Positions 715 to 50,464 of a DNA stretch of 64,000 nt are shown here, piece after piece. Under the pieces are notes generated by a model. That model saw only the letters and a list, made by a program, of their open reading frames with translations, made no database searches and was not told the DNA's origin. The translations under genes were made by a program, and so were the position numbers. This DNA is from Mobula birostris (taxonomy: Eukaryota). Where the stretch lies: NCBI RefSeq assembly GCF_030028105.1, contig NC_092394.1, forward strand, positions 35,694,752 through 35,758,751, written 5' to 3'. How positions within the stretch are numbered: position 1 is the first letter of the stretch; each line of letters begins with the position of its first letter.

Positions 715-1030
715 AAGTATAGTGGTGCAGCGAGTAGAGCTGCTGCCTCTCAGCATCTGAGGTTCAAACCTCACCTCAGATTCTAGCGGTGCGGAACTTG
801 CACATTCTTCCTATTGCACAGTTCCCTCCAGGGGTCCACTTTATTCTCACATCCTGAAATTATGCAAATTGATAGGTTAAATGGCCACTATAAATTGTCC
901 TTAGTGTGGGTGGAGTTCACAAGAGAGTGTGAAGTATAAAATTAAGATCAATGTAGGATTAGTGGATGATTGTTGACCAAGAGACTGTGACTTGAAGGGC
1001 CCATTACTGTGCTCTATCACTTTATGACAC
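715..1030 (+). mobile_element. tRNA-derived SINE (V-SINE/HE1-like)
   Basis: A-box-like GTGGTGCAGCGAG, B-box-like GGTTCAAACC, central GGAACTTGCACATTCTTCC domain and CR1-like 3' end GAAGGGCC...CTGTGCTCTAT. Confidence 0.65.
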
Positions 1031-2542
1031 AGGGATGATACCATGGCTTTGAAAACAAGCTAAATACCTCTCAAAATAGAAATCGTCAATTTAAGACCAA
1101 TTTCTTCAGAATTGGGATGTGTTTTGCAGAGGAAGCAGGGAGGGAGAATGTGGAGGTGGCAAGGGCAAAGAGAAAGTCTGTGATAAAAGACAAAAATGAT
1201 GGTGCTCTCTAAGAGAGGATGGTCAATGCTTGTTAATCATAGTTAACCTGCCTGCAGGACTGTAACTAATGAGAGATTCAAAATAATCAGTATAAAGAAT
1301 TAACTTGAAATAATGCTCAATAATTAAATCATAAATAACCACACTACCACTACTACTACGTCAACTCAAGCCTAGGGGGCCTGCGTCGGGCAAATAACCA
1401 CAGGATAAGGAATATGGGTCTAAATGGCCAAAAGATGTGTTACAGACAAACGTAAGGAACTACGCATTCCACAGAATGCTAGGAGTAGGAGCGGCAAAAT
1501 ATGTGGAATGGTTTAAGAAATATAGACTGTGGAGTTCGTAAGTCTTAACAGAAAGATCATTTGAATAGCCTCCCTTTATCTGCACCATCTCAGAGAGAGG
1601 TCAGTGATTAAAAATCATAACTGTAGATCTTGGCTTAATACAATTATGCTAGCGTGCATTAAACTATTAAATCAAACACAAACAAAAGTAGTGTCTTGTA
1701 TGATGACTTGACACTTAATAAGCAGCTCAATTTCAGTAAGTCTACTGATAAAATATGAGTTAATGAGCAAAACGGTTCCTCATATTAGAATACATTTAAT
1801 ACTTGCATAAGGCACAAACCTAAACGTAATGGTTTAGTAAGATTTTTACCTGAAGATTAAAGGCTCTAAGTATTTTTGTGTAAAAAGACAACAGTTTACG
1901 TCATTTATAATCAAATTAGTATTATTTTAATGAGCCTTGTGAGATTTTCAAATCTATTTTGTGCTTTAACTTTAATACATAGGCTATACAGGCAATCCCC
2001 ACATTATGAGAAAGCTGCAGTCCTAAAAAATAGTCCATGTCACAATTTCCCATTACATGAAGCTGTGTCGTCTGTGCAGTCAAGAAATGCGATGAAAAAA
2101 TTGCATTGATTTATTTACTTCTTTCACACAACTTCTATGGGATGTTATTCCATATATCAAAATTTTCTGTAAATCCTGCAAGAGGGAATTTCCATCACCC
2201 AAATGGCCATAATGCGGGGGAGGGAGGCCACCTGTATGGAATAACAATATATATTTTGTTGCAGAATGAAGATTTGTCGAGGAAGGCGCATGAAAATATA
2301 TGCAAGAGGAAGAACAAATTAGGGATAGAAGCAAAGTAAAAATGTAAATGTAAGATAGACAGGCGCCACAGAACCAGATACACAAATGGAGTCAAGAAAA
2401 CTGATTCTGAATATGACAGGTAATCTTTCCGTGCAGAATGTATTTCCTTTTGAAGTTTTAAAAAAAACTTTAAACTTCCAAATGCAGAAAATCAAGATAC
2501 AGATCTAAAGCCAACCTGAGGTAACTTTCACCAGAGTCATAC

Positions 2543-2666
2543 CTTGCTTTGAGAGGGCACTCCTAAGTGCTGGAGTAATCATTTCTCTTGGTTCTCCCGT
2601 TTCTTTTTTCCTCATGGCACGCTTTGACAACTTAAATTTTGCAGTTTCTTTGTTCATTTCTTCCTT
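2543..2666 (-). CDS. TYW1: TYW1 coding exon 8 (entry to radical SAM domain; gene continues left of the window)
   Basis: atag|KEEMNKETAKFKLSKRAMRKKETGEPREMITPALRSALSKQ-G|gtatga; 124 bp, phase 1, matching the conserved MITPALRxALxKQG. The next exon (GY.LIGSHSGVK) was not seen in 1-2540. Confidence 0.93.
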
Positions 2667-3419
2667 CTATAAGAAAAAAGGGAGAGAATTAAGAAATATC
2701 ACAGGTTACAGCATGATGGTTCTACCAATACTGTCATAAGTTAACGTGCATTTTGGAAACTGAAGAAAGGAATACATATATTTTCTTAAGAACGGTATAT
2801 CTAATATAGAAATTATATTGTCAAGTAGGTAAAATAAAATCCTTAGATTTATATCAGCATCAGTGTCTTACCACAAGCACCTATTTTGTTTATGGTTACT
2901 GTTCTGATGGGTTAATGCAGCAAGCTAGATTTCCCTCTAAAGTAATAATTAAATGGTCCAATGTGCCTACAGAATAATTTCAGCACTAAAATGTAAATTA
3001 TGTCTACATATTGTCCATGATACTGCAAAAGCGTAAGAACAATAAACGACAATCCATGACCACGGAATAATTATTACAGATTTGAAGTATTGTTACTGAA
3101 GAATAATCAGCAAGTTTCAAAAATAAAACACTCAAAGAGGAACATCCATTTAATAGAGCTGACAAAATCCTGCTCATGCTTCACTTGCAATCAGGCACAA
3201 TGCACACATTTGCAGCCCAAGTTATTTTTAGATAGGCTAAGGATAACATTTCAATTAAAATGATAATCAAGGTGGCCAAAAATATATCTATTTTTTAAAT
3301 GTTAATTAGTTTATTATTGTCACATGCACCAGATACAATGAAAAGTTATTGTTTGAACACCATGCAAAGTAGTACAAATAGAAAATAAAATAATGCAGAA
3401 AATAGTACTACAGTTACAG

Positions 3420-6400
3420 AAAAGTTCAAAGTACATTTATTATCAAAATACATAAATGTCTCCATATTCAACCCTGAGATTCGTTTTCTTGAGAGCATAA
3501 TCAATAAATTCATAATGGAATAATACCATAATGAGAATCAATGAAAGACCTCACCAACTTTAGTGTTCAGCCAGCATGCAAAAGACAACAAATTGTGCCA
3601 ATACAAAGAAAGAATAATAATAAATAAATAAGCAATAAATATTGAGAAGATCAGATGAGTCCTTGAAAGTGAGTCCATAGGTTGTGGGAACACTTCAATG
3701 ATGGGGCAAGTGAAGTTTGGTTCAAGAGCCTGATGGTTGAGAGGTAATAGCAGTTCCTGAACCTGCACTACATATCTATAGAAGTTTGTCAAATTTTTAG
3801 ATGTCATGCCGAATCTACACAAGGAAGTAGAGGCTCTCCTGTGCTTTCTTCAGAATTGTACTTACATGCTGAGCCCAGGATAGGCACTCCGAAATAATAA
3901 CTTCGAGGAATTAAAAGTTGATGACCCTCTCCACCTCTGATGAGGACTGCTCATGGACCTCTAGTTTTTTCCTCCTAAAGTCACAAATCATCTCTTTGGT
4001 CTTGCTGACACTGAGTAAAAGTTGTTGCTATGGCACAACTCAGCCTTATTTTCAATCTCCCTCCTATAGGCAGATTCTTCACCACCTTTAATTTGGCCTG
4101 TCACAGTGGTGCCATCAGCAAACCTGAATATGGCATTGGAGCTGTGCTCAGCAACACAGCCAAAAGTGTAAAGCGAGTAGAAAGAGGTAAAGGAGGCTGA
4201 ACACACAGCTTTGTGGTGCACCTGTGCTCACGGAGATAACCTGCTTACGGTGATTGTTGCCAATCTTAACTAACGGGTGTCCGGGAACGTGGTGGGCCTT
4301 GCTGGTGGGGTCCAGGTGCGGTTCGGAGTTTAAGAAGCACTTCTGGCATGGTGGTTTCCAGCTGGGTCAGTAGCTTCACCAGGGTGTTGTTGATCTTGAT
4401 CTTGCTAGGTTAGAGGTTTAGAAGGGTTTCTCGGGTATAGGATAGTGGAGAGGGCAGTTTGCTCGGGAGAGCACGCACAAAGTCGCCAGTTACCGGCGCC
4501 ATCTTTAACAGATCTTTAAGGGCCCTCTTGAAGATAAATCCAAGTAGATAACGGGCCCAGATGGCGTCCCAGGATGGGTTCTCTGGGCCTGTGCAAGCGA
4601 GCTAGCTGGAGTGCTTGCTGACATCTTCAACTGCTCCTTGCTTCAGTCTAAGATCCCCTCATGTTTTAAGAAGGCAACAATAATCCCAGTGCCAAAGAAG
4701 AGCAAGGTGGCATGCCTGAATGACTATCGACCTGTGGCTCTGACATCAATTGCTATGGAGCGCTTCGAGAGATTGGTTATGGCACACATCAACCACAGCC
4801 TACCGGTCAACCTCGACACTTTGCAATTCGCCTACCGGAGCAACAGGTCAACGGCAGATGCCATCTCTCTGGCCCTACATTCCTCCTTAGAACACCTGGA
4901 GAATAAAGATGCATACGTAAGGCTCCTTTTCATTGACTACAGCTCTGCCTTTAATACCATCGTTCCAAATAAACTGATTCCTAAGCTCCGGAACCTGGGC
5001 CTTAGCACTCAGATCTGCAGCTGGATCTTCAACTTCCTCACAGACAGGACCCAGGCTGTAAAAATAGGGGACAAGCTCTCCTCTATAATCACTCTGAGCA
5101 CCGGTGCCCCACAAGGCTGTGTACTCAACTCCCTGCTGTACTCACTGTACACCCATGATTGTATAGCCAAGTTTCCATCAAACTCAATATATAAGTTTGC
5201 TGATGACACAACAATTGTAGGCCGTATCTCGGGTAATGATGAGTTTGAGTACAGAGAGGAAATTAAGAACCTGGCGGCATGCTGTGAAGACAATAACCTA
5301 TCCCTCAACGTCAGTAAGACGAAGGAATTGGTTGTTGACTTCAGAAGGAGCAGCGGACCACACGACCCCATTTACATTGGTGGTGCACAAGTGGAACAGG
5401 TCAAAACCTTTAAGTTCCTCGGGGTCAATATCACAAATGACCTGACTTGGTCCAACCAAGCAGAATTCACTGCCAAGAAGGCCCACCAGCGCCTTTACTT
5501 CTTGAGAAAACTAAAGAAATTTGGCCTGTCCCCTAAAACCCTCACTAATTTTTATAGATGCACCACAGAAAGCATTCTTCTAGGGTGCATCACAACCTGA
5601 TATGGAAGTTGTCCTCTCCAAGACCGAAAGAAGCTGCAGAAGATCGTGAACACGGTGCAGCACATCACACAAACCAATCTTCCGTCCTTGGACTCACTTT
5701 ACACTGCATACTGTCGGAACAGCGCTGCCAGGATAATCAAGGACACGACCCACCCAGCCAACACACTTTTCGTCCCTCTTCCCTCCGGGAGAAGGTTCAG
5801 GAGCTTGAAGACTCGTACAGCAAGATTTGGGAACAGCTTCTTTCCAACTGTGATAAGACTGCTGAACAGATCCTGATCCGGATCTGGGCCGCACCCTCCA
5901 AATATATGGACCTGCCTCTCGGTTTTTTTGCACTACCTTACTTTCCATTTTTCTATTTATGATTTATAATTTAAATTTTTAATATTTACTATTTACTACT
6001 TTTAATTTTTTAAATATTTAATATTTGTAATCCAGGGAGTGGGAAGCGCAGAATCAAATATCGCTGTGATGATTGTACGTTCCAGTATTAATTGTTTGGA
6101 GACAATAAAGTATAAAGTAAAATGTGAAAATCAAGGAGCCAATTGCACAATGAGGTAGTGAGGCCAAGGTCTTGAAGCTTCCTCTTTACTTTTGGGGGAA
6201 GGGTGGTATTGAATGCCGAGCTGTAGTCGATAAAGAGCATCCTGATACATGCATCTTTGCTGGCCAAATGTTCCAGGGCTGAGTAAAGAGCCAATGAGGT
6301 GGCAACTGCTGTGGACCTGTTGCTCCAGTAGGCAAATTGGAGTGGATCCAAGACACCTCTCAGGCAACAGTTGATATGTTTCATCACCAACCTCTCAAAA

Positions 6401-40706: not shown

Positions 40707-41020
40707 AACACAAGAGATTCTGCAGATGCTGTAAATCTAGAGCAACTCACACAAAATGCTGGAAGAACTCAGCAAATCCAACAGCATCTAGGAAGGAGAA
40801 TAAACAGCCTATGTTTCAGGCTGAGCCCCTTCACCAGGACAGAAAAGGAAGAGTAGAAGCCAAAATAAGGAGGTGAGAGGAGGGGAAAGTACAAGCTGGC
40901 AGGTGAGGGGGAAGGTGGGTGGAAGAGAAGGGATGGAGTATGAAGCTGGGAGATGATAGATGGAATCCCCTTCATAGATGCTACCTGATTTGCTAAGTGC
41001 CTCCATCATTTTGTTTGTTG
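40707..41020 (-). mobile_element. Penelope-derived pseudo-LTR fragment with partial inverted arm
   Basis: ACACAAGAGATTCTGCAGATGCTG...AAAATGCTGGAAGAACTCAGC end shared with the other copies; degenerate hammerhead near 40810-40840. Confidence 0.7.
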
Positions 41021-41509
41021 CTTTTATTTTTTTTCTTAACCCTTTTCCCCCCTTGAACAAAACCTGTCCCACTGAGCATTCATTTGGACAGCATTACTTT
41101 TTTTTTTGCTTGCTATCCATTCAAGTCACCTCTGAAATGCCAAAGGATACTGCTACAGATGTTAAATGAATTCATACCTTGTTTATTCATTCAAGTTGCT
41201 ACTGAGATATGAGCTCAGAAAAGTTTATAAACAATTTGATTGTATAGAATTAGAGAAGCCTGAACAATAAACGGACATCAATGTAGAATAAGTGAATCAC
41301 ACATCCACACTAATGATGGGCAAATTAAGGACCAATTGTCAAGAACACCACACAAAAAAAATCAAGACTTAGACATGGGTTTTCAAACAAGGGCAACATA
41401 ATTCTAAAGTCTACTAAATTTAGTTTTAAAAAAGGAAGTGGGGATTCTGTGTGGATAAACGGACAGGGCGAAATACAAAATATATTTATTAAATCTACGT
41501 TCCTTTGTT

Positions 41510-42080
41510 AAACACCGGCTTTCAAGATTAGGTCCGCGCCTGTATCCAATGGTGAAGTCCGACGCTCAATCGGCGGGAGGAGGATCAGGCACGACCGACA
41601 TACCGAAAACTCCTCAATCAAACGATTCACAGACAAGTTAATCTCCGTTAGTAACTTCAGACGAAGGTTGTGGAAGTCTCACCGTCACCACGTTGTTCCC
41701 CGCACACCGGCCCGGGACGGCAGAGCCCCAATAACACAACGACCATCAGCGCCCACATAGCAGTCCGCTTCCTGCCCGGCGAGTACACGGGAGCCTCGGG
41801 TACAGCAGAGACGCGCGGTCCCCCTCCTCGCCCGGCGGGCAAACAGGAGCCTCGGAGACAACAGAAGGATGTGACCCCCCACTCCTCACAACTCCCCCAG
41901 CACCGCCATTGCTCAACGCAGAGGGTGCTGGGATTCAACCAACTTTATTCACACTTCCGTCCTCACTCCGCCGGCAGACTAGTGAATGGGACTCTCCCTG
42001 TCCTGTGTCACGTTCATCCCGCAGAATGGAAATATTATCCCCAGTGCACGCTGCCCTCGGGAGGAGGCAACGTTCACCCA
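41510..42080 (-). promoter_or_regulatory. CpG island / TYW1 promoter and first exon
   Basis: Sharp rise in GC and CpG against an AT-rich background; ETS/GABP-like CGGAAGTG on the minus strand at 41952-41959, about 45 bp upstream of the ATG. Confidence 0.75.
41890..41909 (-). CDS. TYW1: TYW1 probable coding exon 1 (MAVLGE + TT, phase 2)
   Basis: The minus strand reads GCA-ATG GCG GTG CTG GGG GAG TT|GTGAGG inside a CpG-rich island, just downstream of an ETS-like CGGAAGTG. It joins in frame to the acceptor at 40355, giving MAVLGEFETWNSF. Confidence 0.65.
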
Positions 42081-42090
42081 CCTCAAGGCT

Positions 42091-44207
42091 GTCTGTTTGT
42101 CTGTATCTTGTTTTACGGCGGTTTGCATCCAGCTTAATGGTGCATTACCGCCACCCTCTGCTCCAGAATGTGCACTAGACATACATTCTAAATCCCTACA
42201 CACACTTCACCCTCCCATCTTTGACCATCCTAGTATCCTATTCCTGTTTATTCGTCATATTCTATAAAAAAAAAACCCTGTACCCCTTAAAAACGCTAAA
42301 AATACCCGGACTTGTGCTCAGCCCATGCCCAGCAACCCTTTTAATGTGAATTCCTGCATCCCCAACTCCCTTAATTTATTTCTCATCATCTCTCTCTGTA
42401 TCCCATACTTCCTGCAACACAAAACTACATGTTCTACTGACTCCTCTTCCTGACATTCCTCACACAATCCTGTCTGGTGTTTCCCTATCATTTTCAATGT
42501 TTTGTTTAATGCACAATGCCCCAGCCTTAACCTAGTCCACACAATTTCCTCTCTTCTGTTTCCATTACCTACCCTAGTAACTGTAACACTCTTTTGTATT
42601 TGATATAAATGCCTCCCTTTCCCCTCCCTGTCCCATCTTTCTTGCCACATTCGGTTGACTTTTTCCCAGATTACACACTTAACCTCTGCTTTACTGATAC
42701 TAATGTGCATTTCCACATTTTCTTTCTTTAATGCCCTCTTTGCCAACTCATCCACCCTCTCAATCCCCTTCACCCCTACATGTGCTGGAACCCATAGAAA
42801 TTTTACCTGACCTCCCTGATTTGCAATTCTTGTAACTAACTAGGACTTCATAAAGTACATCTTGCCGACTGTTTACGTGAAAAGACCTTAAACTTGCTAG
42901 AACTGAGGATGAATCTGAACGTATCAATGCTTTGGCTTGTCTGGCTTTCTGCACCCATTGCAACGCAACCAACACTGCCAGCATCTCCACTGTAAACACT
43001 CCTAACTTATTAGATGTTCTTCTGCTGATTCCAATTTCTTTTGCTGGTATTACCACCCCAAACCCTGTCACTCCTGTTTCAGGTTCCTTCGCACCATCCG
43101 TATAAATGTGAGTATAATCACTATACTTTTCCATCACATGACAGTTAAACGCATTTACCAAATCTGTTTTATATCTTTCTTTCCTTTTTACCTCTAACAA
43201 ATGCCAGTCTATGTCAGGCCATACAAGCTTCCATGGAGCTACAACCAGATAAACTACTGAAGGACTTATCCTCAGATCAAACACTCCACATTCTTTCGCG
43301 ATATCATTCCCTACCCGACTAGAGGTATCCCTCTGAAACCTCCCATTTTCCCGGCACTCCTGCAACACTCCTTTAGTAGGATGAGAATCATTGTGCCCCT
43401 GCAAGTTAGCCCAGTAGTTTGCCATCAGTTGCATTCTTCTTAGTTCCAAAGGCATTATTCCCATTTCTACCTGTAGGGCTGACACTGGTGACGTTTTAAA
43501 AGCCCCACTGCACACTCTCAAGGCCTGAGCCTGAATCACATCCAGTTTCCTTATAAGAGACCTAGCTGCTGATCCATATACTATATTTCCATAATCCAAT
43601 ACAGATCTTACTAAAGCCACATACATTCTCTTCAAAGCTGAACAACTTGCTCCCCATTCCCTACCAGTCAAACATCTCATCACATTTATTACTTTTTTAC
43701 ATTTCTCATCAACTTTCCTGATATGGTCTGCCCATGTTAATCATGAATCAAATATAACTCCCAGAAATTTAAATGATGCAACCCTTTCTAATTCAACCCC
43801 ATACATCCTTAACTTCTTCCCTAACTCAACCCTTTTCCTGGTAAAAAATACAGTTTGAGTTTTATCTACTGAAAATCTACATCCCTAATCATAACCCCAC
43901 TCCACCACTTCATCAATTGCTTCTTGTAGTTTCCTGATTATATGGTCCATGTTCCTGCCTCTTTTCCACAAGGCCCCATCATCCGCAAACAGTGACCTAC
44001 CTATATCCACTGGTACCTTTGTGAAGACATCATTGATCATAATGATGAAAAGTAAAGGGCTAATCACACTACCTTGAGGTGTGCCATTTTCCACTATGTA
44101 CTGTTTTGATAATTCTGATCCAATCCGAACTTGAATTTTTCTACCAAACAAAAAATCTTTAATCCAATTAAAAACTCTCCCACCAACCCCCATTTTGTGC
44201 AGTTTAA
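42091..44207 (-). mobile_element. 5'-truncated I-group (Nimb-like) LINE with RT, RNase H and zinc knuckle
   Basis: RT motifs GTPQGSVISPLLF and LFADD; RNase H IYTDGAK; C-terminal CEEC...ESVEHVVLCC; short ACAG/ACAA tail; flanked by the direct repeat CACCTCAAGGCT (42079-42090, 44208-44219). A few stops and frameshifts. Confidence 0.9.
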
Positions 44208-45029
44208 CACCTCAAGGCTACAAAGACATGAATCTGATGAAGAGTCTCAGACCGAAAGTTCGACTCTTTATTTCTTTCCATAGATGCTGCCTGACCGCTA
44301 AATTCCTCCAGCACTTTGCAGGTGTAACTCTGAGTTTGACGCTGACCTGGATTGCTCTCGATGCTCTCTATTCATTTGTCCCTCTGACTATGCGATTTCT
44401 GTTAGAAATTCTAATTTCCACATCACCCCAAAGTCATACAGTTTTCTTAATTGGCTACTGGAAAGCATCCAGAAGGTTGATAGGTGGCAGAATCCCCATA
44501 GAGGGAGAAATTAATAGGCATGGGAGACAGAATAAGTTATATTTTGGTGGGAGACAAGACTGATGAGAATGCTGTGGGATATGGCCCAGCATAACCTTGG
44601 TGGACTGAATGGCCTCCTACTTTGTCATAAGGTAACAAGTGAAGTGACAGGATTTTGGACGAGTTGGAATTTGGAAAAATGTTTAAAGAAGTAACTTGCA
44701 GTTCCTTCTCCAAAGCACTTTAATACGTTATCTCCTGGAAATCCAGTCAAATCTGGTTTTGCAGTCCCTTCAGTCAAGTTGTCCTGTGGCTGTATGCTTT
44801 TAGCTTCAACACTAATATTCTTAAATCACATGAATGAAAGTCACATATAAATTTTTTGTAACAGTGATCATGCGAGCCATGCTCAACATCTCTACAATAT
44901 ATATTTAGACTCAATAGGTCGAATTGCCTAATTCTGTTCCTCTGACTGTTCACTGATTCTTGAGAATTTGGATAAAACAGCTTTTAATTTTGAATAGAAA
45001 AAATTTTAAATGTTAAGAAATATAAACTT

Positions 45030-45765
45030 ACATCAAGTCAAGTCACTTCTATTGTCATTTTGACCATAACTGCTGGTACAGTACACAGTAAAAATGAGAC
45101 GACGTCTTTCAGGACCATGGTGCTACATGAACAATACAAAAACTACACTGAACTATGTAAAAAAACAACACGAAACTACACTAGACTACAGACCTACCCA
45201 GGACTGCATAAAGTGCACAAAACAGTACAGGCATTACAATAAATAATAAACAAGACAATAGGCACAGTAGAGGGCAGTAGGCTGGTGTCAGTCCAGGCTC
45301 TGGGTATTGAGGAATCTGATGACTTGGGGGAAGAAACTGTTACATAGTCTGGTCGTGACAGCCCGAATACTTCGGTGCCTTTTGCCAGATGGCAGGAGGG
45401 AGAAGAGTTTGTGTGACGGGTGCGTGGGGTCCTTCATGATGCTGTTTGCTTTGCGGGGGCAGCATGTGGTGTAAATGTCTGTAATGGTGGGAAAAGAGAC
45501 CCCGGTGATCTTTTCAGCTGACCTCACTATCCACTGCAGGATCTTGCGATCCGAGATGGTGCAATTTCCGAACCAGACAGTGATGCAGCTGCTCAGGATG
45601 CTCTTGATACATCCCCTGTAGGATGCCTTGAGGACATGGGGGGGGGGGGGGGGGTTGACTTTTCTCAGCCTTCACAGGAAGTAGAGATGCTGCTGGGCCT
45701 TCTTTGCTATGGAGCTGGTGTTGAGGGACCAGGTGAGATTCTCCGCCAGGTGAACACCAAGAAAT
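45030..45765 (-). mobile_element. Rex1-type LINE 3' fragment
   Basis: VRSAEKITGV...[21 protein letters not shown]...NSFFPQVIR; (CTTGA)n tail at 45033. Confidence 0.85.
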
Positions 45766-45884
45766 ATGTTTACAGAAAAAGGTCTCAGCAATCAAGCAAT
45801 TTTTCGGTGCAACCTCCTGATTTTGTAGTTTTTTATAAAATATGTGCCTTTTCATAAAATATGTGTCTTTTCCTGTTATTACTT

Positions 45885-47980
45885 AGTTTTTGTCAACAGT
45901 CACACACAATAAAAAGCTAATTATTCCTGTTTATTTAGTCTTATATAGATTTAGAGCCTTTAAATCATTGTGTCTACACCATAGGTACACATATATGCTG
46001 TTAAATGTTGAATATTCACTTTTGTTCATTTTTTATACTATTTCATGTGTACTCCTTTAAAAACTCTTACATCATGCAACTTTTATCATTAGCATTAAAT
46101 ATGCAAAATAACAATTTTGGACATCATAAACACATTTTTAATTTTAAAGAGACAATTACTTTAATAAATCAACTGTTTTGGAGGAACGGATTGTAAGTAT
46201 ATTAATTTGTAACAAAGGAAGTTCCATCTGACGGTGGTGACTGAGACCTGACGTTGATGGCAGTGGCCTAATTACAACAAACAATTCCAACCTTTTCACC
46301 ACTCAAGTCAATGCTTCCTTGCTTAACAACTTTACTTAACAACTTCGTACAACGAATAACAATTCGTCATGTACATTTTATCCTTTTGTAAATATTAATA
46401 ACAGTAAACAGCAAAATAAAAACTACAGTAGAACTGCAATGTTTAAGCATAAACATCAGAAAACACACCAGGAACTTTAAAAAAAAATTCCATCCATTTC
46501 TGGGCCTGAAAATCTTTGAAAACGTTCAGTCAGCTTTATCAAGAAGTAGACGATTAATATGCTCCTTCTCTATGAAGTCCATGACTTCAGCAGACAGGTG
46601 GTAGATCTCCCTCGTCCTGCTTCCACAACCCGGTGATGATGGCTCCATCAGTTTGACCAGGATATCTTCAACTGGTACGAAGCACATATCCTTTCCACCT
46701 GGTTTTGGATGGAAGCGCATGTTGGGCCCATGAGGGTGGAAAAACTCCACTTGAACATCTTGATGATGAGCATCCACAGTGACAGCCTTTGCTAACCACC
46801 AATTTTGGTCATAAATGACTGCAAGCCAATCTCCACAATTAATGACACCAGCAGACATATCTGTTGTAGTCCTGTCAGGTCCACTCTGGGGTTCCTGCTC
46901 CATTTCCTCCATCAGCTTTCTCTTACGCTCTCTTGACTCTTGCTGTCTACGTTTCCATGCCTTTCTCTTACTCCTCTTTTCCCTTTCATTCAAATCACTG
47001 ATAGTTTTTATCTTCCCATCCTCTACTCTCTTCTTCCATCTTTGCTTTTCCTTTCTCAGGTATTCCTCCTTTAACTCTGGCTTACTATATATTTTCTCTC
47101 TCCGCTTTTTTTGGTATTCCCTGTTTCTTCTCCTTCGCTCCTCCACTGATAGCTGCTGCCTAGCCATAACTTCCTAAAATACATAAAAGGAAGGTCAGAA
47201 TTTAATGGAATTACTATGAAATTGTGCAAAATCACTATGAATTTAATTATGTTTAATTTGGTGAAATTTTCTAAAATGATTATGAAATGGTGCAACTAAA
47301 TTCATTTATGGTTTTAGTCATTGGGGATACATATAGTAAGGAAATATTGTAAGCCTGTGTGTGGAAGAAATAAAGGGGAAATTATGTATATTATAAATAA
47401 AGAGGTTAATGAAACATTAATGAAAACATTAATGAAACCAATTTCCCCCGGGATCAATAAAGTATGACTATGACTATATTACTATTTATTGTGATCATAA
47501 ATTATACTCAAGCCTCCATTGAGGATGATTTGGATGGTTTTTGTCAACACCGTCAAACTATGTGTCACCACCGTCAGACAAAACCTGACGGTGTTGATGT
47601 CTGACAGTGGTGACAAAAACACACTTTTTTACATGACATGCATGAGTTATATACAGGAGCCATCTCGTTTTCCTTCTGTTGCTAGCTGCCTCTGGCCTCT
47701 ACTTAAAATGCATAAATGTATGTCATAACTTAAAATAATTCTTTCTATACAAAAGAGACAGTGTTGACACGTCATGGTTCTGACAGTAGCAACATCAATA
47801 AATATGTAAAAATTATTGAAAAATAGCAAACTTACAGGAGCTTGTTTGACCTTGTTTGCATTTAGCAGATGTGGTGGGTGGAAAGGGGGTCCTTAGGAAT
47901 ATAGTTGACCATGTGGTTGCCTGATTTTATTGCTTTTTTTAAAAAATAAATATCTGACGGTGTTGACAAAAACTTGGGAC
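45885..47980 (-). mobile_element. Putative internally deleted DNA transposon with repeated CTGACGGTGKTGAC motifs
   Basis: Perfect 14-bp inverted repeat AGTTTTTGTCAACA (45885-45898) / TGTTGACAAAAACT (47961-47974). Motif copies at 46228, 47543, 47564, 47585, 47601 and 47954. True ends are uncertain. Confidence 0.55.
46526..47167 (-). CDS. Intact 213-aa ORF of probable DNA-transposon origin (basic coiled N-terminus + SH3/Tudor-like C-terminus, no catalytic core seen)
   Basis: Uninterrupted ATG-to-TGA ORF. A strong acceptor (ctgac...ttccttttatgtattttag) lies 6 nt upstream of the ATG, with a matching donor CCT|gtaagt at 47836/47835. The C-terminal GDWLAVIYDQNWWLAK...VEFFHPHGP...D.CFVP pattern resembles C-termini of animal transposon proteins. 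Confidence 0.6.
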   Translation of the reverse strand: MARQQLSVEERRRRNREYQKKRREKIYSKPELKEEYLRKEKQRWKKRVEDGKIKTISDLNEREKRSKRKAWKRRQQESRERKRKLMEEMEQEPQSGPDRTTTDMSAGVINCGDWLAVIYDQNWWLAKAVTVDAHHQDVQVEFFHPHGPNMRFHPKPGGKDMCFVPVEDILVKLMEPSSPGCGSRTREIYHLSAEVMDFIEKEHINRLLLDKAD

Positions 47981-48841
47981 CCATTTTGAGCCAACCACAA
48001 AATAAGAGTAAATATTGTTGAAAACTCACTGCTTTTAGTTTTAAAGGTTTTTCACAACGCTTTCATCTGGCAGATACACATTTTAAATAAATTTTTCACT
48101 TTTTTTTATCAAATTGAAATGATAATCTCTTGTCTGCGGACAGCTAATTTTGTGGGTTACTGGGCTATCATATAAAAATATAATTTATAAAATCAAAAGC
48201 ATGAAAAAATATTGCATTTGTGCAAACCACCCTCGGATGATCAACCCTGATTATTTTAAATAAGAAAATGTTATTCATTTTCAACGGAATTAGCACTTTA
48301 CTTAGTGGGGCATGTTTTCAGAATCAGTGTTTTTAATCATTTATCGAAGATGAAGATAAAACTTCAAATACACCTGCTGAAGTTGGTAGTTACTTTCTGG
48401 CCTTCTGGTGCTAGACAGGCTGAGTCTACAACAACGTTCATGCACCCGAGATAACCTGGTAGAATCTGGAGTCCAGTGCCTCTGGTCTGAGGTTTGCATG
48501 CCCGCCGGATCGACCCCTGAAACCGAGATGATCACCCAAATCTCTGACCGGGAAACGGTGGGCAGACCCCTCACTCTCCCTACCCGTGTCGCTACAGCCG
48601 TCCCCTTGCGCAACAATGGGCTCATGTTTTACGCTAAATAAATATTTACTTTATTTGTGCGGAGTCTTACAGCATTGACATTTATTTTCCAGACGAGTAG
48701 GGTAATAGCCGAAGACAAGACCTTTAGCATCGGTCTGTCCAAGAGTTGGTGAGAGCAGGTGGAACAATAGAACCGCCTTCGTGTTTCCCGCCGGAGCCAA
48801 CCGGGAGGGGACGAGTTCTTCGCCTCTGCGCTGTAGGGTGA

Positions 48842-49049
48842 CAGGGCCGGGGCTGGGCGTGCGGGACCGAGAGCACCAGGGCCGGGAGCTCAGTGTGCGG
48901 GAACAGGAGCAACAGGGCCGGGGGCTCAGTGTGCGGGAACAGGAGCAACAGGGCCGGGGGCTCAGTGTGCGGGAACAGGAGCAACAGGGCCGGGGGCTCA
49001 GTGTGCGGGAACAGGAGCAACAGGGCTGGGGGCTCAGTGTGCGGGGCCG
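48842..49049. repeat. 36-bp GC-rich minisatellite (VNTR)
   Basis: Unit CAGGGCCGGGGGCTCAGTGTGCGGGAACAGGAGCAA starts at 48877, 48913, 48949 and 48985, with degenerate copies at 48842 and 49021. Confidence 0.97.
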
Positions 49050-49172
49050 AGGCTCGGGATAAACGGGCTGAACCGAGCGGCGAGTTCCCAAGGTAGGAGC
49101 CAAAACTCGGGCAAGAGAGGCTGTGGTTACGGACCGCCCGTGAGGAGTCTGTTGACCGAGGGCTGATTCTGA

Positions 49173-49313
<141 letters not shown>

Positions 49314-50464
49314 TGAGTATCCCGTCCATGCAGTTTGTTACATCTGTTAATATAATATATCTCCATTTGTTTGTGTTTGTACGTAATTTGGTATTGTCGT
49401 GCACTGTTTTTTGAGATAGTATGTATTTATAATAAAGGGGGCTTCTGTTCGTTAAATATCCGAAGGTAGTATAGAGCTTTCTATGTGGTGACTTCCGTCT
49501 CAAAGTTCATCGTGAGTCACGATACTCACTTAAACCTTGATGCTATTCCCACAGATCAGCTGAACATCGAACATAACTTCCTAACCTCTCATTGTCTGAT
49601 ATCTGAATTTGGGTGCCGACCCCTCCCATTCAATTTTGTTATCCTTGCAGCTCTCCTCTCACACGAAGAGTGTGTCCATTCTTAGTTATTTGTGTCTCCT
49701 GATCCCGTTGACCAAGAGCTAAAAAAAATTAGGACTCATTGAAGAATGAACATAAGGACTAGATCACATGCTTAGAACTTTTTTGAGATATTTTATCTCA
49801 CATATATACCCTACTATTTACGTTAATATTTTATCTAAGAATATATTTATTAATATATTATTGTGCTTAATCTCACTACAAATAGATTATAATTCTGGAA
49901 ATAAATAGAACTATAGGGGCTTTTTCCAAAAAAGGTCAAATATCTAGGATGACACGGCCAGTGACTGGTGTGATTGCTAATAAAAAAAAAGTTTTGTTCT
50001 GATATAATTACATTAAAACTAACACAGTTTATATTTCAGTTTACAACTTCAGAGTTTTACATGACATCATTGAATATCATAGAAATTAAACATATAATTA
50101 TGGAACTGTAGATGGGGTTGCTAAGATCACGCAATATAATGAAAAGAATTTTCACTCTTTTACAAAAATAACATTTGTAAGAAAAGATTAGTCTCTGTGA
50201 CAATGCAATATCGACCAAATGAAAATTTTAAGTCAGTTTTTGTTTACTAAAAGTTTGATTCCAATTGGATCACATCCAGTGAAAGCATCTGGTTTTCATT
50301 CTGGGTCCTAGGAAGCAAGGGAGAATGCAGTGATACAAACTTTTAGATAACATGATCTACTGGATAGGTCAGTGAAGTATGGGTTTTTAAAGAAAGATTT
50401 GTGTGGATTTGTTCTGTATGTTTTTATGAACAGCTCTTTATCTCAACCAATTTTGTATTTTCAG

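What the first reader, a model, noticed from the sequence alone, without database searches (positions are those of the whole stretch)
46526..47900. Intact, apparently spliced 213-aa transposon-derived gene between the TYW1 and SBDS promoters
Seen: most other mobile-element coding regions here carry stops, frameshifts or truncations, but this ORF is open from ATG to TGA. It has a branch point, polypyrimidine tract and AG 6 nt before the ATG, and a GTAAGT donor 662 nt upstream (intron 47174-47835), implying a non-coding first exon that points away from the SBDS CpG island. The protein is a very basic, helical N-terminus (RRRRNREYQKKRREKI...) joined directly to a beta-rich SH3/Tudor-like module (GDWLAVIYDQNWWLAK...VEFFHPHGP). 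Inference: the two halves look like the N- and C-termini of a large animal transposase (Sola2-like, from memory only) with the catalytic core deleted in frame. It could be a domesticated DNA/chromatin-binding protein or a dominant-negative repressor (like the P-element KP protein), possibly driven by divergent transcription from the SBDS promoter.
Basis: partly seen in the sequence, partly recalled or inferred. Interest (0 to 1): 0.75.

Follow-up and report, generated by a model that had tools for sequence, protein, structure and literature searches.

The report
Captured Sola2 transposon remnant in rays
A cut-and-paste transposon that lost the middle of its transposase gene sits next to the SBDS gene in two devil/manta-type rays, keeps an open and transcribed reading frame, and is likely spliced to a host exon, so it may be a young gene being recruited from mobile DNA.

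Summary
The ORF, the acceptor and the donor are present as described. Residues 1-84 and 85-213 are the two ends of an ~850-aa Sola2-type transposase (73-74% identical to P0037); about 643 residues with the DDD/RNase H core are deleted in frame. The ORF lies in a 3.4-kb element (44951-48329) of a multi-copy family. The intron is likely the transposon's own, since its donor appears used in another copy's RNA. A Mobula hypostoma RefSeq protein (P0302) is the orthologue: same junction, 4 of 213 residues differ. RNA contigs identical to this copy make up about half of the family's depth over the ORF in one run, but that splice joint was not seen. Early changes look neutral (7 amino-acid changes); changes since the species split lean synonymous (7:3, post hoc P about 0.01-0.04). 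Best reading: a young, promoter-captured transposase remnant under some constraint (0.45). A neutral passenger is close behind (0.35). A KP-like repressor is unlikely.

The parts
44951..48329 (-). Non-autonomous, internally deleted Sola2-type DNA transposon copy (includes two later insertions)
   Evidence: DNA contig depth 26-319x (X4) and 122-431x (X3) the flanks; ends estimated at about 48328 and 44947; unique contigs stop at 44977 in both DNA runs
48320..48329 (-). 5' terminal inverted repeat (10 bp perfect, CACTG start); outer flank AAAA
   Evidence: X4 joint 44980/48294 on opposite strands suggests a longer repeat in other copies
44951..44960 (+). 3' terminal inverted repeat; outer flank AACA read on the minus strand
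46916..47167 (-). Codons 1-84: basic helical N-terminus of the transposase
   Evidence: tblastn to P0037 1-93, 73%; helices in the model
46526..46915 (-). Codons 85-213: transposase C-terminus (P0037 728-854) with a predicted Tudor/SH3-like barrel
   Evidence: tblastn 74%; model 751-818 vs PHF19 Z 6.5, rmsd 1.7, 55 aligned
46915..46916 (-). In-frame deletion junction; about 643 codons lost; one shared G (inferred)
   Evidence: an X3 contig carries 25 unmatched letters beyond 46916, i.e. a copy without this junction
47174..47200 (-). Transposon's own branch point, pyrimidine tract and AG acceptor
   Evidence: used in the P0302 model
47830..47836 (-). Transposon's own donor CCT|GTAAGT; likely used by other copies, not shown for this one
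   Evidence: X10 joint 46626/47834, depth 115, absent from DNA runs X3 and X4
48374..48625 (-). 84-codon open frame in unique host DNA outside the element, ending at donor CAG|GTGTAT, in phase with the transposon exon
   Evidence: 83 of 84 residues match the N-terminus of P0302; no Pfam hit
47537..47975 (.). Cluster of subterminal repeats (core CACCGTCAG / TGTCAACAC); further copies at about 46228-46241 and 45885-45898
45030..45763 (-). Later LINE-like fragment inside the 3' part of the element
   Evidence: joint 45029/45764 skipping 734 nt in X3, X1 and X10; resembles the RT fragments elsewhere in the window by eye; no Pfam hit
47435..47477 (.). Later short high-copy repeat inside the intron
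   Evidence: loose ends at 47435 and 47477; joint 47419/47476 in 4 of 4 runs
49185..49313 (+). SBDS exon 1; its CpG island is the likely source of divergent transcription
41683..41915 (-). TYW1 exon 1 (neighbour; no link to the element seen in RNA)

Best explanation
This is an internally deleted Sola2-type transposon copy, shared at this site by two mobulid rays, whose own splice acceptor likely captures divergent transcription from the SBDS CpG island through a host exon, and whose protein is likely a young recruited gene under partial constraint. The inferred order: (1) the element inserted between SBDS and TYW1 and carried or gained an in-frame deletion of the core; (2) it drifted and gained 7 amino-acid changes in its C-terminal half; (3) minus-strand transcripts from the SBDS island splice from the host donor at 48374 into the acceptor at 47173; (4) translation gives 213 aa from the transposon ATG, or 299 aa if the transcript reaches the ATG at 48625. 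The product lacks the DDD residues, so it cannot cut DNA. It is predicted to be a nuclear chromatin binder: basic helices contact DNA and the Tudor-like barrel would bind histone tails or DNA. Shown: anatomy, orthology, transcription of the ORF. Inferred: the splice in RNA, the promoter, translation, binding and selection.
For: Orthologue P0302 (XP_062888035.1, M. hypostoma) has the same junction, all 7 copy-specific residues, 209 of 213 identity, and an 84-aa leader that maps to window 48625-48374. A DNA contig of organism B bridges the unique flank and the element's 5' end (48270-48790, 8 differences in 521). X1 contigs identical to the window cover the ORF at depth 60-69 out of about 138. 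They do not run into the intron (total depth 18.6 at 47271), and the 5'-most one starts with the AG that an exon ending in CAG would supply. Changes since the split: 4 synonymous and 1 non-synonymous in the host exon; 3 (2 seen, 1 inferred) and 2 in codons 96-160. Pooled omega is 0.17-0.26, P 0.007-0.036. Codons 2-85 have no amino-acid change (P about 0.05 at d=0.017). [quoted passage not shown]
Against: No 47173/48374 joint is among the joints shown (15 of 74, 15 of 61). X1 has zero depth at 48418-48790, where the 84-codon exon lies, and X10 and X2 contigs cross the 48374 donor unspliced at depth 4-6. The window's own protein record is the 213-aa form. The P0302 model is automatic and I could not see its RNA support. 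Before the split the C-terminal half took 7 non-synonymous changes against about 1-2 synonymous, at columns no less conserved than random (P 0.24), which looks neutral. After the split the C-terminal half has 4 changes against 4.7 expected. Over all 299 codons, 5 are seen against 7.5-13.7 expected (P 0.24-0.007, depending on the neutral rate). The synonymous tally is small, post hoc, and partly rests on assigning X10 contigs to the orthologue. The contig's AG start could instead be a graph break caused by a variant at 47145.
Confidence: 0.45

Rival explanations
1. A neutral passenger: the same deleted copy is transcribed because it sits beside a housekeeping CpG island, but the frame is open by luck and the protein does nothing useful.
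For: An open frame has a 1-10% chance per copy in a family at tens to hundreds of times flank depth. The early branch looks neutral, with changes at conserved sites (G99R, R181C, P209L). The C-terminal half evolves at about the neutral rate after the split. Similar in-frame end-to-end joins recur in teleosts (P0003/P0305, P0016/P0312, P0033).
Against: Synonymous excess since the split. Both exons stay open and in phase in both species. Codons 2-85 show no change.
Confidence: 0.35
2. One reading: this copy is transcribed from the transposon's own promoter and non-coding exon 1 (donor 47836), and the host exon is an annotation artefact.
For: The donor matches the consensus and appears used in another copy's RNA (X10 joint). 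X1 shows no depth on the host exon.
Against: X1 depth is 12.6 at 47855 and 0 at 47875, against 69 in the ORF. The copy-identical contig starts with AG, not CT. No 47173/47836 joint is shown although joints of summed depth about 64 were listed. The orthologue's model uses 48374.
Confidence: 0.08
3. A KP-like dominant-negative repressor of its own transposon family, poisoning transposase complexes or blocking the ends.
For: Small non-autonomous P elements often encode repressors such as the 207-aa KP protein (PMC7776569, passages read). End-to-end joins recur in this family, one in several Xiphophorus copies. This copy supplies about half of the family's ORF RNA depth in X1.
Against: The deletion removes the long coiled coil, the helical and Cys/His regions and the core, the likely end-binding and pairing parts (inferred; not mapped for Sola2). 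The one named Mobula core seen (P0303) has changes in conserved motifs (HGKG to RGKG, DGP to DGL). Other copies' contigs differ from this copy by about 5-10%. None of the 11 longer hits is named as Mobula (6 are unnamed). The family looks old, leaving little to repress.
Confidence: 0.07

Closest known systems
Sola2 DNA transposons (Repbase; alignment in PMC3627910 additional file 10)
   Same: The parent protein has the same motifs in the same order, by eye: SR..GKK, RPF..R.TC.C..H.N, the C..C cluster, QW, DFSE..EVQS.HFG, SDGP..QY.NK, HGKG..DG.GG.VKR. It is closest in look to the silkworm and leech rows. The element has short terminal repeats.
   Different: This copy lacks the core. Its apparent ends start with CAC and its flanks (AAAA/AACA) fit a 4-bp duplication at only 3 of 4 bases; the amoebozoan Sola2 ends in additional file 11 start with G after an AT-rich 4-mer.
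Host-transposase fusion genes (KRABINER, SETMAR, PGBD3-CSB; 10.1101/2020.05.07.082677)
   Same: A host exon is likely spliced to an acceptor that the transposon carries just upstream of its ORF.
   Different: The upstream exon belongs to no known coding gene and has no known domain, so it looks de novo. The captured part is a deletion product with no recognised site-specific DNA-binding or catalytic domain. 'Sola' does not occur in that paper's main text (supplements not seen). Selection is not established.
P-element KP repressor (207 aa; PMC7776569)
   Same: A short open frame from an internally deleted element.
   Different: KP binds P-element DNA and dimerises (reference titles in the review). 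Here the likely equivalent parts are deleted and the C-terminus is kept in frame. Amplification of this exact deletion was not shown.
Tudor/chromo-barrel readers (PHF19, MTF2, MRG15) and the integrase SH3-like C-terminal domain
   Same: The predicted small beta-barrel at P0037 750-817 aligns at Z 6.2-6.5, rmsd 1.2-1.7 A for PHF19 and MTF2; it follows an RNase H core, as in retroviral integrases.
   Different: 10-14% identity; Z under 8 may reflect only a common fold; the ligand is unknown.

Membership tests
Sola2 transposons | Transposase similar to Sola2, with a DDD triad | tested here: met
   For the parent protein: D476 in 121 of 122, D557 in 122 of 122, D599 in 121 of 123 (first 123 of 149 rows). 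Motifs match the published alignment by eye (part 1 of 2 read); no score computed.
Sola2 transposons | RNase H-like DDE/D catalytic fold | tested here: met
   Model pLDDT 85.7; residues 454-637 match integrase cores (Z 10.2, rmsd 3.0, 143 aligned) and Mos1 (Z 9.6, rmsd 3.5, 162 aligned). Foldseek gave nothing at E<=0.001 (best 1.4e-3).
Sola2 transposons | Short terminal inverted repeats | tested here: met
   10 bp perfect at 48329-48320 and 44951-44960, where contig depth changes
Sola2 transposons | 4-bp AT-rich target-site duplication | tested here: inconclusive
   AAAA vs AACA: 3 of 4, or a 2-bp AA; one old copy only, no empty site seen
Sola2 transposons | Ends starting with G (GRG recalled; GA/GT) | tested here: inconclusive
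   The apparent ends start with CAC; an inner GAA.../...CTC pair lies about 10 bp inside; ends are mapped only to a few bases
Sola2 transposons | Intact transposase in this copy (autonomous) | tested here: not met
   Five full-length queries hit only the two end segments in the window
Host-transposase fusion genes | Host exon spliced to the transposon's own acceptor | tested here: inconclusive
   Present in the P0302 model; joint not seen in the RNA rows shown
Host-transposase fusion genes | Host part is a known domain from a parent gene | tested here: not met
   No Pfam hit for the 84-aa leader; it lies outside the SBDS and TYW1 exons mapped here
Host-transposase fusion genes | Shared at one locus between species | tested here: met
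   P0302 and the X3 flank-bridging contig; two species only
Host-transposase fusion genes | Purifying selection on the transposase part | tested here: inconclusive
KP-type repressors | Keeps end-binding and dimerisation domains | tested here: inconclusive
   The coiled coil and Cys/His regions are deleted, but Sola2's end-binding domain is unmapped
KP-type repressors | Same deletion amplified to many copies beside an active element | not testable with these tools
   No genome held; the junction's copy number was not among the rows shown
EnSpm/CACTA (considered because of CACTG ends and a possible 2-bp duplication; features recalled) | CACTA-type transposase domain | tested here: not met
   None of 6 full-length proteins hit a transposase family in Pfam at E<=1, while the motifs follow Sola2

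The most novel reading that the evidence does not exclude
A gene born in mobulid rays from two non-genes: a de novo 84-codon exon from the divergent side of the SBDS promoter, fused to a core-less Sola2 transposase, giving a 299-aa basic-helix plus Tudor-barrel chromatin reader now under purifying selection. It would be a Sola-derived vertebrate host gene, which my searches did not find described, and recurrent end-to-end joins in teleosts would point to a reusable mini-protein.
Probability: 0.25. Interest if true: 0.72.

Novelty: new variant of a known kind. Interest (0 to 1): 0.45.

Why it matters
If selection is confirmed, this is gene birth caught early, with every step still readable: insertion, in-frame deletion, neutral drift, promoter capture through the transposon's own acceptor, then constraint. 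It would add Sola2 to the sources of vertebrate host genes and show capture of a Tudor-like accessory domain rather than the usual DNA-binding domain. It also gives a small, separable domain for asking what the C-terminal barrel of Sola2 transposases binds. If neutral, it is an ordinary transcribed relic that gene annotation lists as an uncharacterised protein.

Tried and rejected
No genome is held, so copies and junctions could not be counted. Pfam gave nothing for the 213-aa protein and only sub-threshold hits for 3 of 6 full-length proteins and for P0302. Solved-structure sequence searches gave only chance or coiled-coil hits. The Atlas gave unnamed clusters and a weak DUF7869 lead (0.83 and 0.77). 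Related-locus scans found 2 distant loci at 28-29% and none in viral contigs; GTDB genomes were not scanned. A local alignment for inverted ends over wide regions did not beat shuffles (best 29, shuffle maximum 37), so the ends rest on contig depth plus the 10-bp match. Rfam found nothing in 41000-50000. I rejected the idea that the element lies in TYW1 intron 1, because TYW1 contigs start at about 41915. I rejected EnSpm/CACTA on protein motifs. Four look-ups in earlier findings returned nothing. The original Sola paper and the DDE superfamily survey are not held, so GRG ends are recalled. The absence of X1 depth at 48418-48790 is a hole in filtered contigs and proves little by itself. No complex prediction was sent. 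Literature searches. No title or abstract listed describes this locus or a Sola-derived host gene; one search listed 15 of 45 papers. The mobulid genome preprint's main text has no 'Sola', 'SBDS' or 'LOC134337114'; bioRxiv supplements could not be seen and may bear on this.

Full report
Observation. The 213-aa ORF (47167-46526, minus), the acceptor 6 nt before the ATG and the GTAAGT donor 662 nt upstream are all present. The ORF lies between TYW1 exon 1, which RNA contigs of 4 of 4 runs place at 41683-41915, and SBDS exon 1 at 49185.

What the protein is. A search for longer relatives gave 11 hits among 1131 candidates, six of them 809-867 aa. Residues 1-84 align to their N-terminus and 85-213 to P0037 728-854, at 73-74% identity. 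Nothing from the core is in the window. About 643 residues were deleted in frame. Across 123 of 149 aligned relatives, D476, D557, D599 and HGK are nearly invariant. The motif order matches the published Sola2 alignment by eye (PMC3627910, passages plus additional files 10 part 1 and 11). A model of P0037 from 149 sequences (pLDDT 85.7) has an integrase/Mos1-like RNase H core (Z about 10) and a Tudor/SH3-like barrel at 750-817 (Z 6.2-6.7, weak on its own). The short protein keeps three basic helices and the barrel and loses the coiled coil, the Cys/His clusters and the catalytic core.

The element. DNA contigs of two organisms show depth 26-319 times (X4) and 122-431 times (X3) the flanks between about 44950 and 48330. 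The tool warns this is no copy number, but it shows a multi-copy family. A 10-bp inverted repeat marks both ends. The flanks AAAA/AACA leave the duplication length open. Subterminal repeats occur near both ends. A 734-nt LINE-like piece and a short repeat were inserted later, since other contigs skip them. Other copies' contigs differ from this copy by about 5-10%, and one continues past 46916 into sequence deleted here. This is an old copy, not a young burst.

Orthology. The window protein's cluster has one other member, P0302 (XP_062888035.1, Mobula hypostoma, 299 aa). It has the same junction, all seven residues that separate this copy from the family-like P0002 (G99R, I104M, T150M, R181C, A182G, E201K, P209L), and 209 of 213 identities. 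The host is therefore inferred to be a mobulid ray. A DNA contig of organism B runs from the unique flank into the element (8 differences in 521) and carries the same H-to-D allele as P0302. A preprint puts the split of the two mobulids it compares at about 20 Mya (10.64898/2026.10.27.761883, passages read); whether that date applies to this pair is not established.

Transcription and splicing. Runs X1, X2, X10 and X18 are RNA by the TYW1 splice. In X1, contigs identical to the window cover 46401-46541, 46631-46916 and 46959-47175, at depth 60-69 in the ORF out of about 138 in total. The 42-nt gap around the junction was not among the pieces shown. The first 84 residues of P0302 map to unique DNA at 48625-48374, outside the element on the edge of the SBDS CpG island, ending at CAG|GTGTAT and joining in frame at 47173. 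That would explain why the X1 contig begins with AG. Against this, no such joint is among the rows shown (15 of 74; 15 of 61), X1 has no depth at 48418-48790, and low-depth X10 and X2 contigs cross the donor unspliced. So the 5' end remains unresolved. The transposon's own donor appears real: an X10 contig joins 47834 to 46626 with one extra letter, which reads as a splice from 47836 to a downstream acceptor in another copy, and DNA runs X3 and X4 do not show it (inference). Published fusions mostly use an acceptor native to the transposon (10.1101/2020.05.07.082677, section 5 and passages read).

Selection. An open frame is not rare enough to count alone. Before the split the C-terminal half took 7 non-synonymous changes against one seen synonymous change (about 2 allowing for hidden rows), with no avoidance of conserved columns. 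That branch looks neutral. After the split, the host exon shows 4 synonymous and 1 non-synonymous change (P 0.02-0.03), and codons 96-160 show 3 and 2. Pooled omega is 0.17-0.26, P 0.007-0.036. Codons 2-85 show no change; the C-terminal half shows 4 against 4.7 expected. Over all 299 codons, 5 are seen against 10.7 expected at the flank rate of 12/699 (P 0.045), but P is 0.24 at a rate of 0.012. These are small, post hoc counts from tables that show only part of the rows (40 of 421; 40 of 308), and codons 1-95 and 161-213 have no synonymous count. They raise the odds of constraint without proving it.

Mechanism and rivals. Most likely, divergent transcription from the SBDS island is spliced into the transposon's acceptor and yields a catalytically dead protein with basic helices and a barrel, predicted to bind chromatin and likely under partial constraint (0.45). 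A transcribed neutral passenger is nearly as likely (0.35).

Novelty. Deleted transposon copies and exon capture are known kinds. The variant here is a Sola2 source, a core-less product that keeps an accessory barrel, and an apparently de novo host exon. The ten searches listed under Tried and rejected showed no description of it in the listings; most papers were seen only as search listings, and supplements of preprints could not be seen. Other papers seen in passages: PMC4455052, PMC5753468, PMC12477816, 10.1101/2021.09.26.461848. Interest 0.45.

Noticed in passing
window 41900-49200: TYW1 and SBDS, recalled as sharing a short bidirectional promoter in mammals, have two separate CpG-rich stretches about 7 kb apart here, with mobile-element insertions between them. 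Insertions may have split one island, leaving a spare divergent promoter.
   Followed up: partly
P0303 vs P0042: A Mobula copy of this transposase is 76% identical over 408 aa to an icefish copy, which suggests horizontal transfer between rays and teleosts. No tree was built.
   Followed up: partly
P0003/P0305, P0016/P0312, P0033: Independent end-to-end joins of the same transposase occur in teleosts; the Xiphophorus form is annotated at several loci in two species. The search favours such forms, so the recurrence may be an artefact.
   Followed up: partly
window 48375-48640 (+): The antisense strand of the 84-codon host exon also has a long open frame. The exon may derive from an older coding element.
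   Followed up: no
L001 (about 830-5100): A distant relative (28%) with GGG-starting inverted ends and subterminal repeats; its ORF looks to carry an Ulp1-like protease region before a similar C-terminal barrel (by eye, motif recalled).
   Followed up: no
window 48808-49081: A 36-bp GC-rich tandem repeat (about 6 copies) in the SBDS CpG island, 100-380 bp upstream of the ATG.
   Followed up: no
window 42300-44250 (-): A decayed non-LTR retrotransposon with an RNase H domain directly upstream of the TYW1 start.
   Followed up: no
window 48237-48319: RNA contigs of depth 82-134 in X1 and X10 cover the element's 5' end with a non-window allele at 48310; their source is unexplained.
   Followed up: no
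window 41683-41915 (-): TYW1 exon 1 holds a short upstream ATG-TGA frame before the in-frame ATG (read).
   Followed up: no
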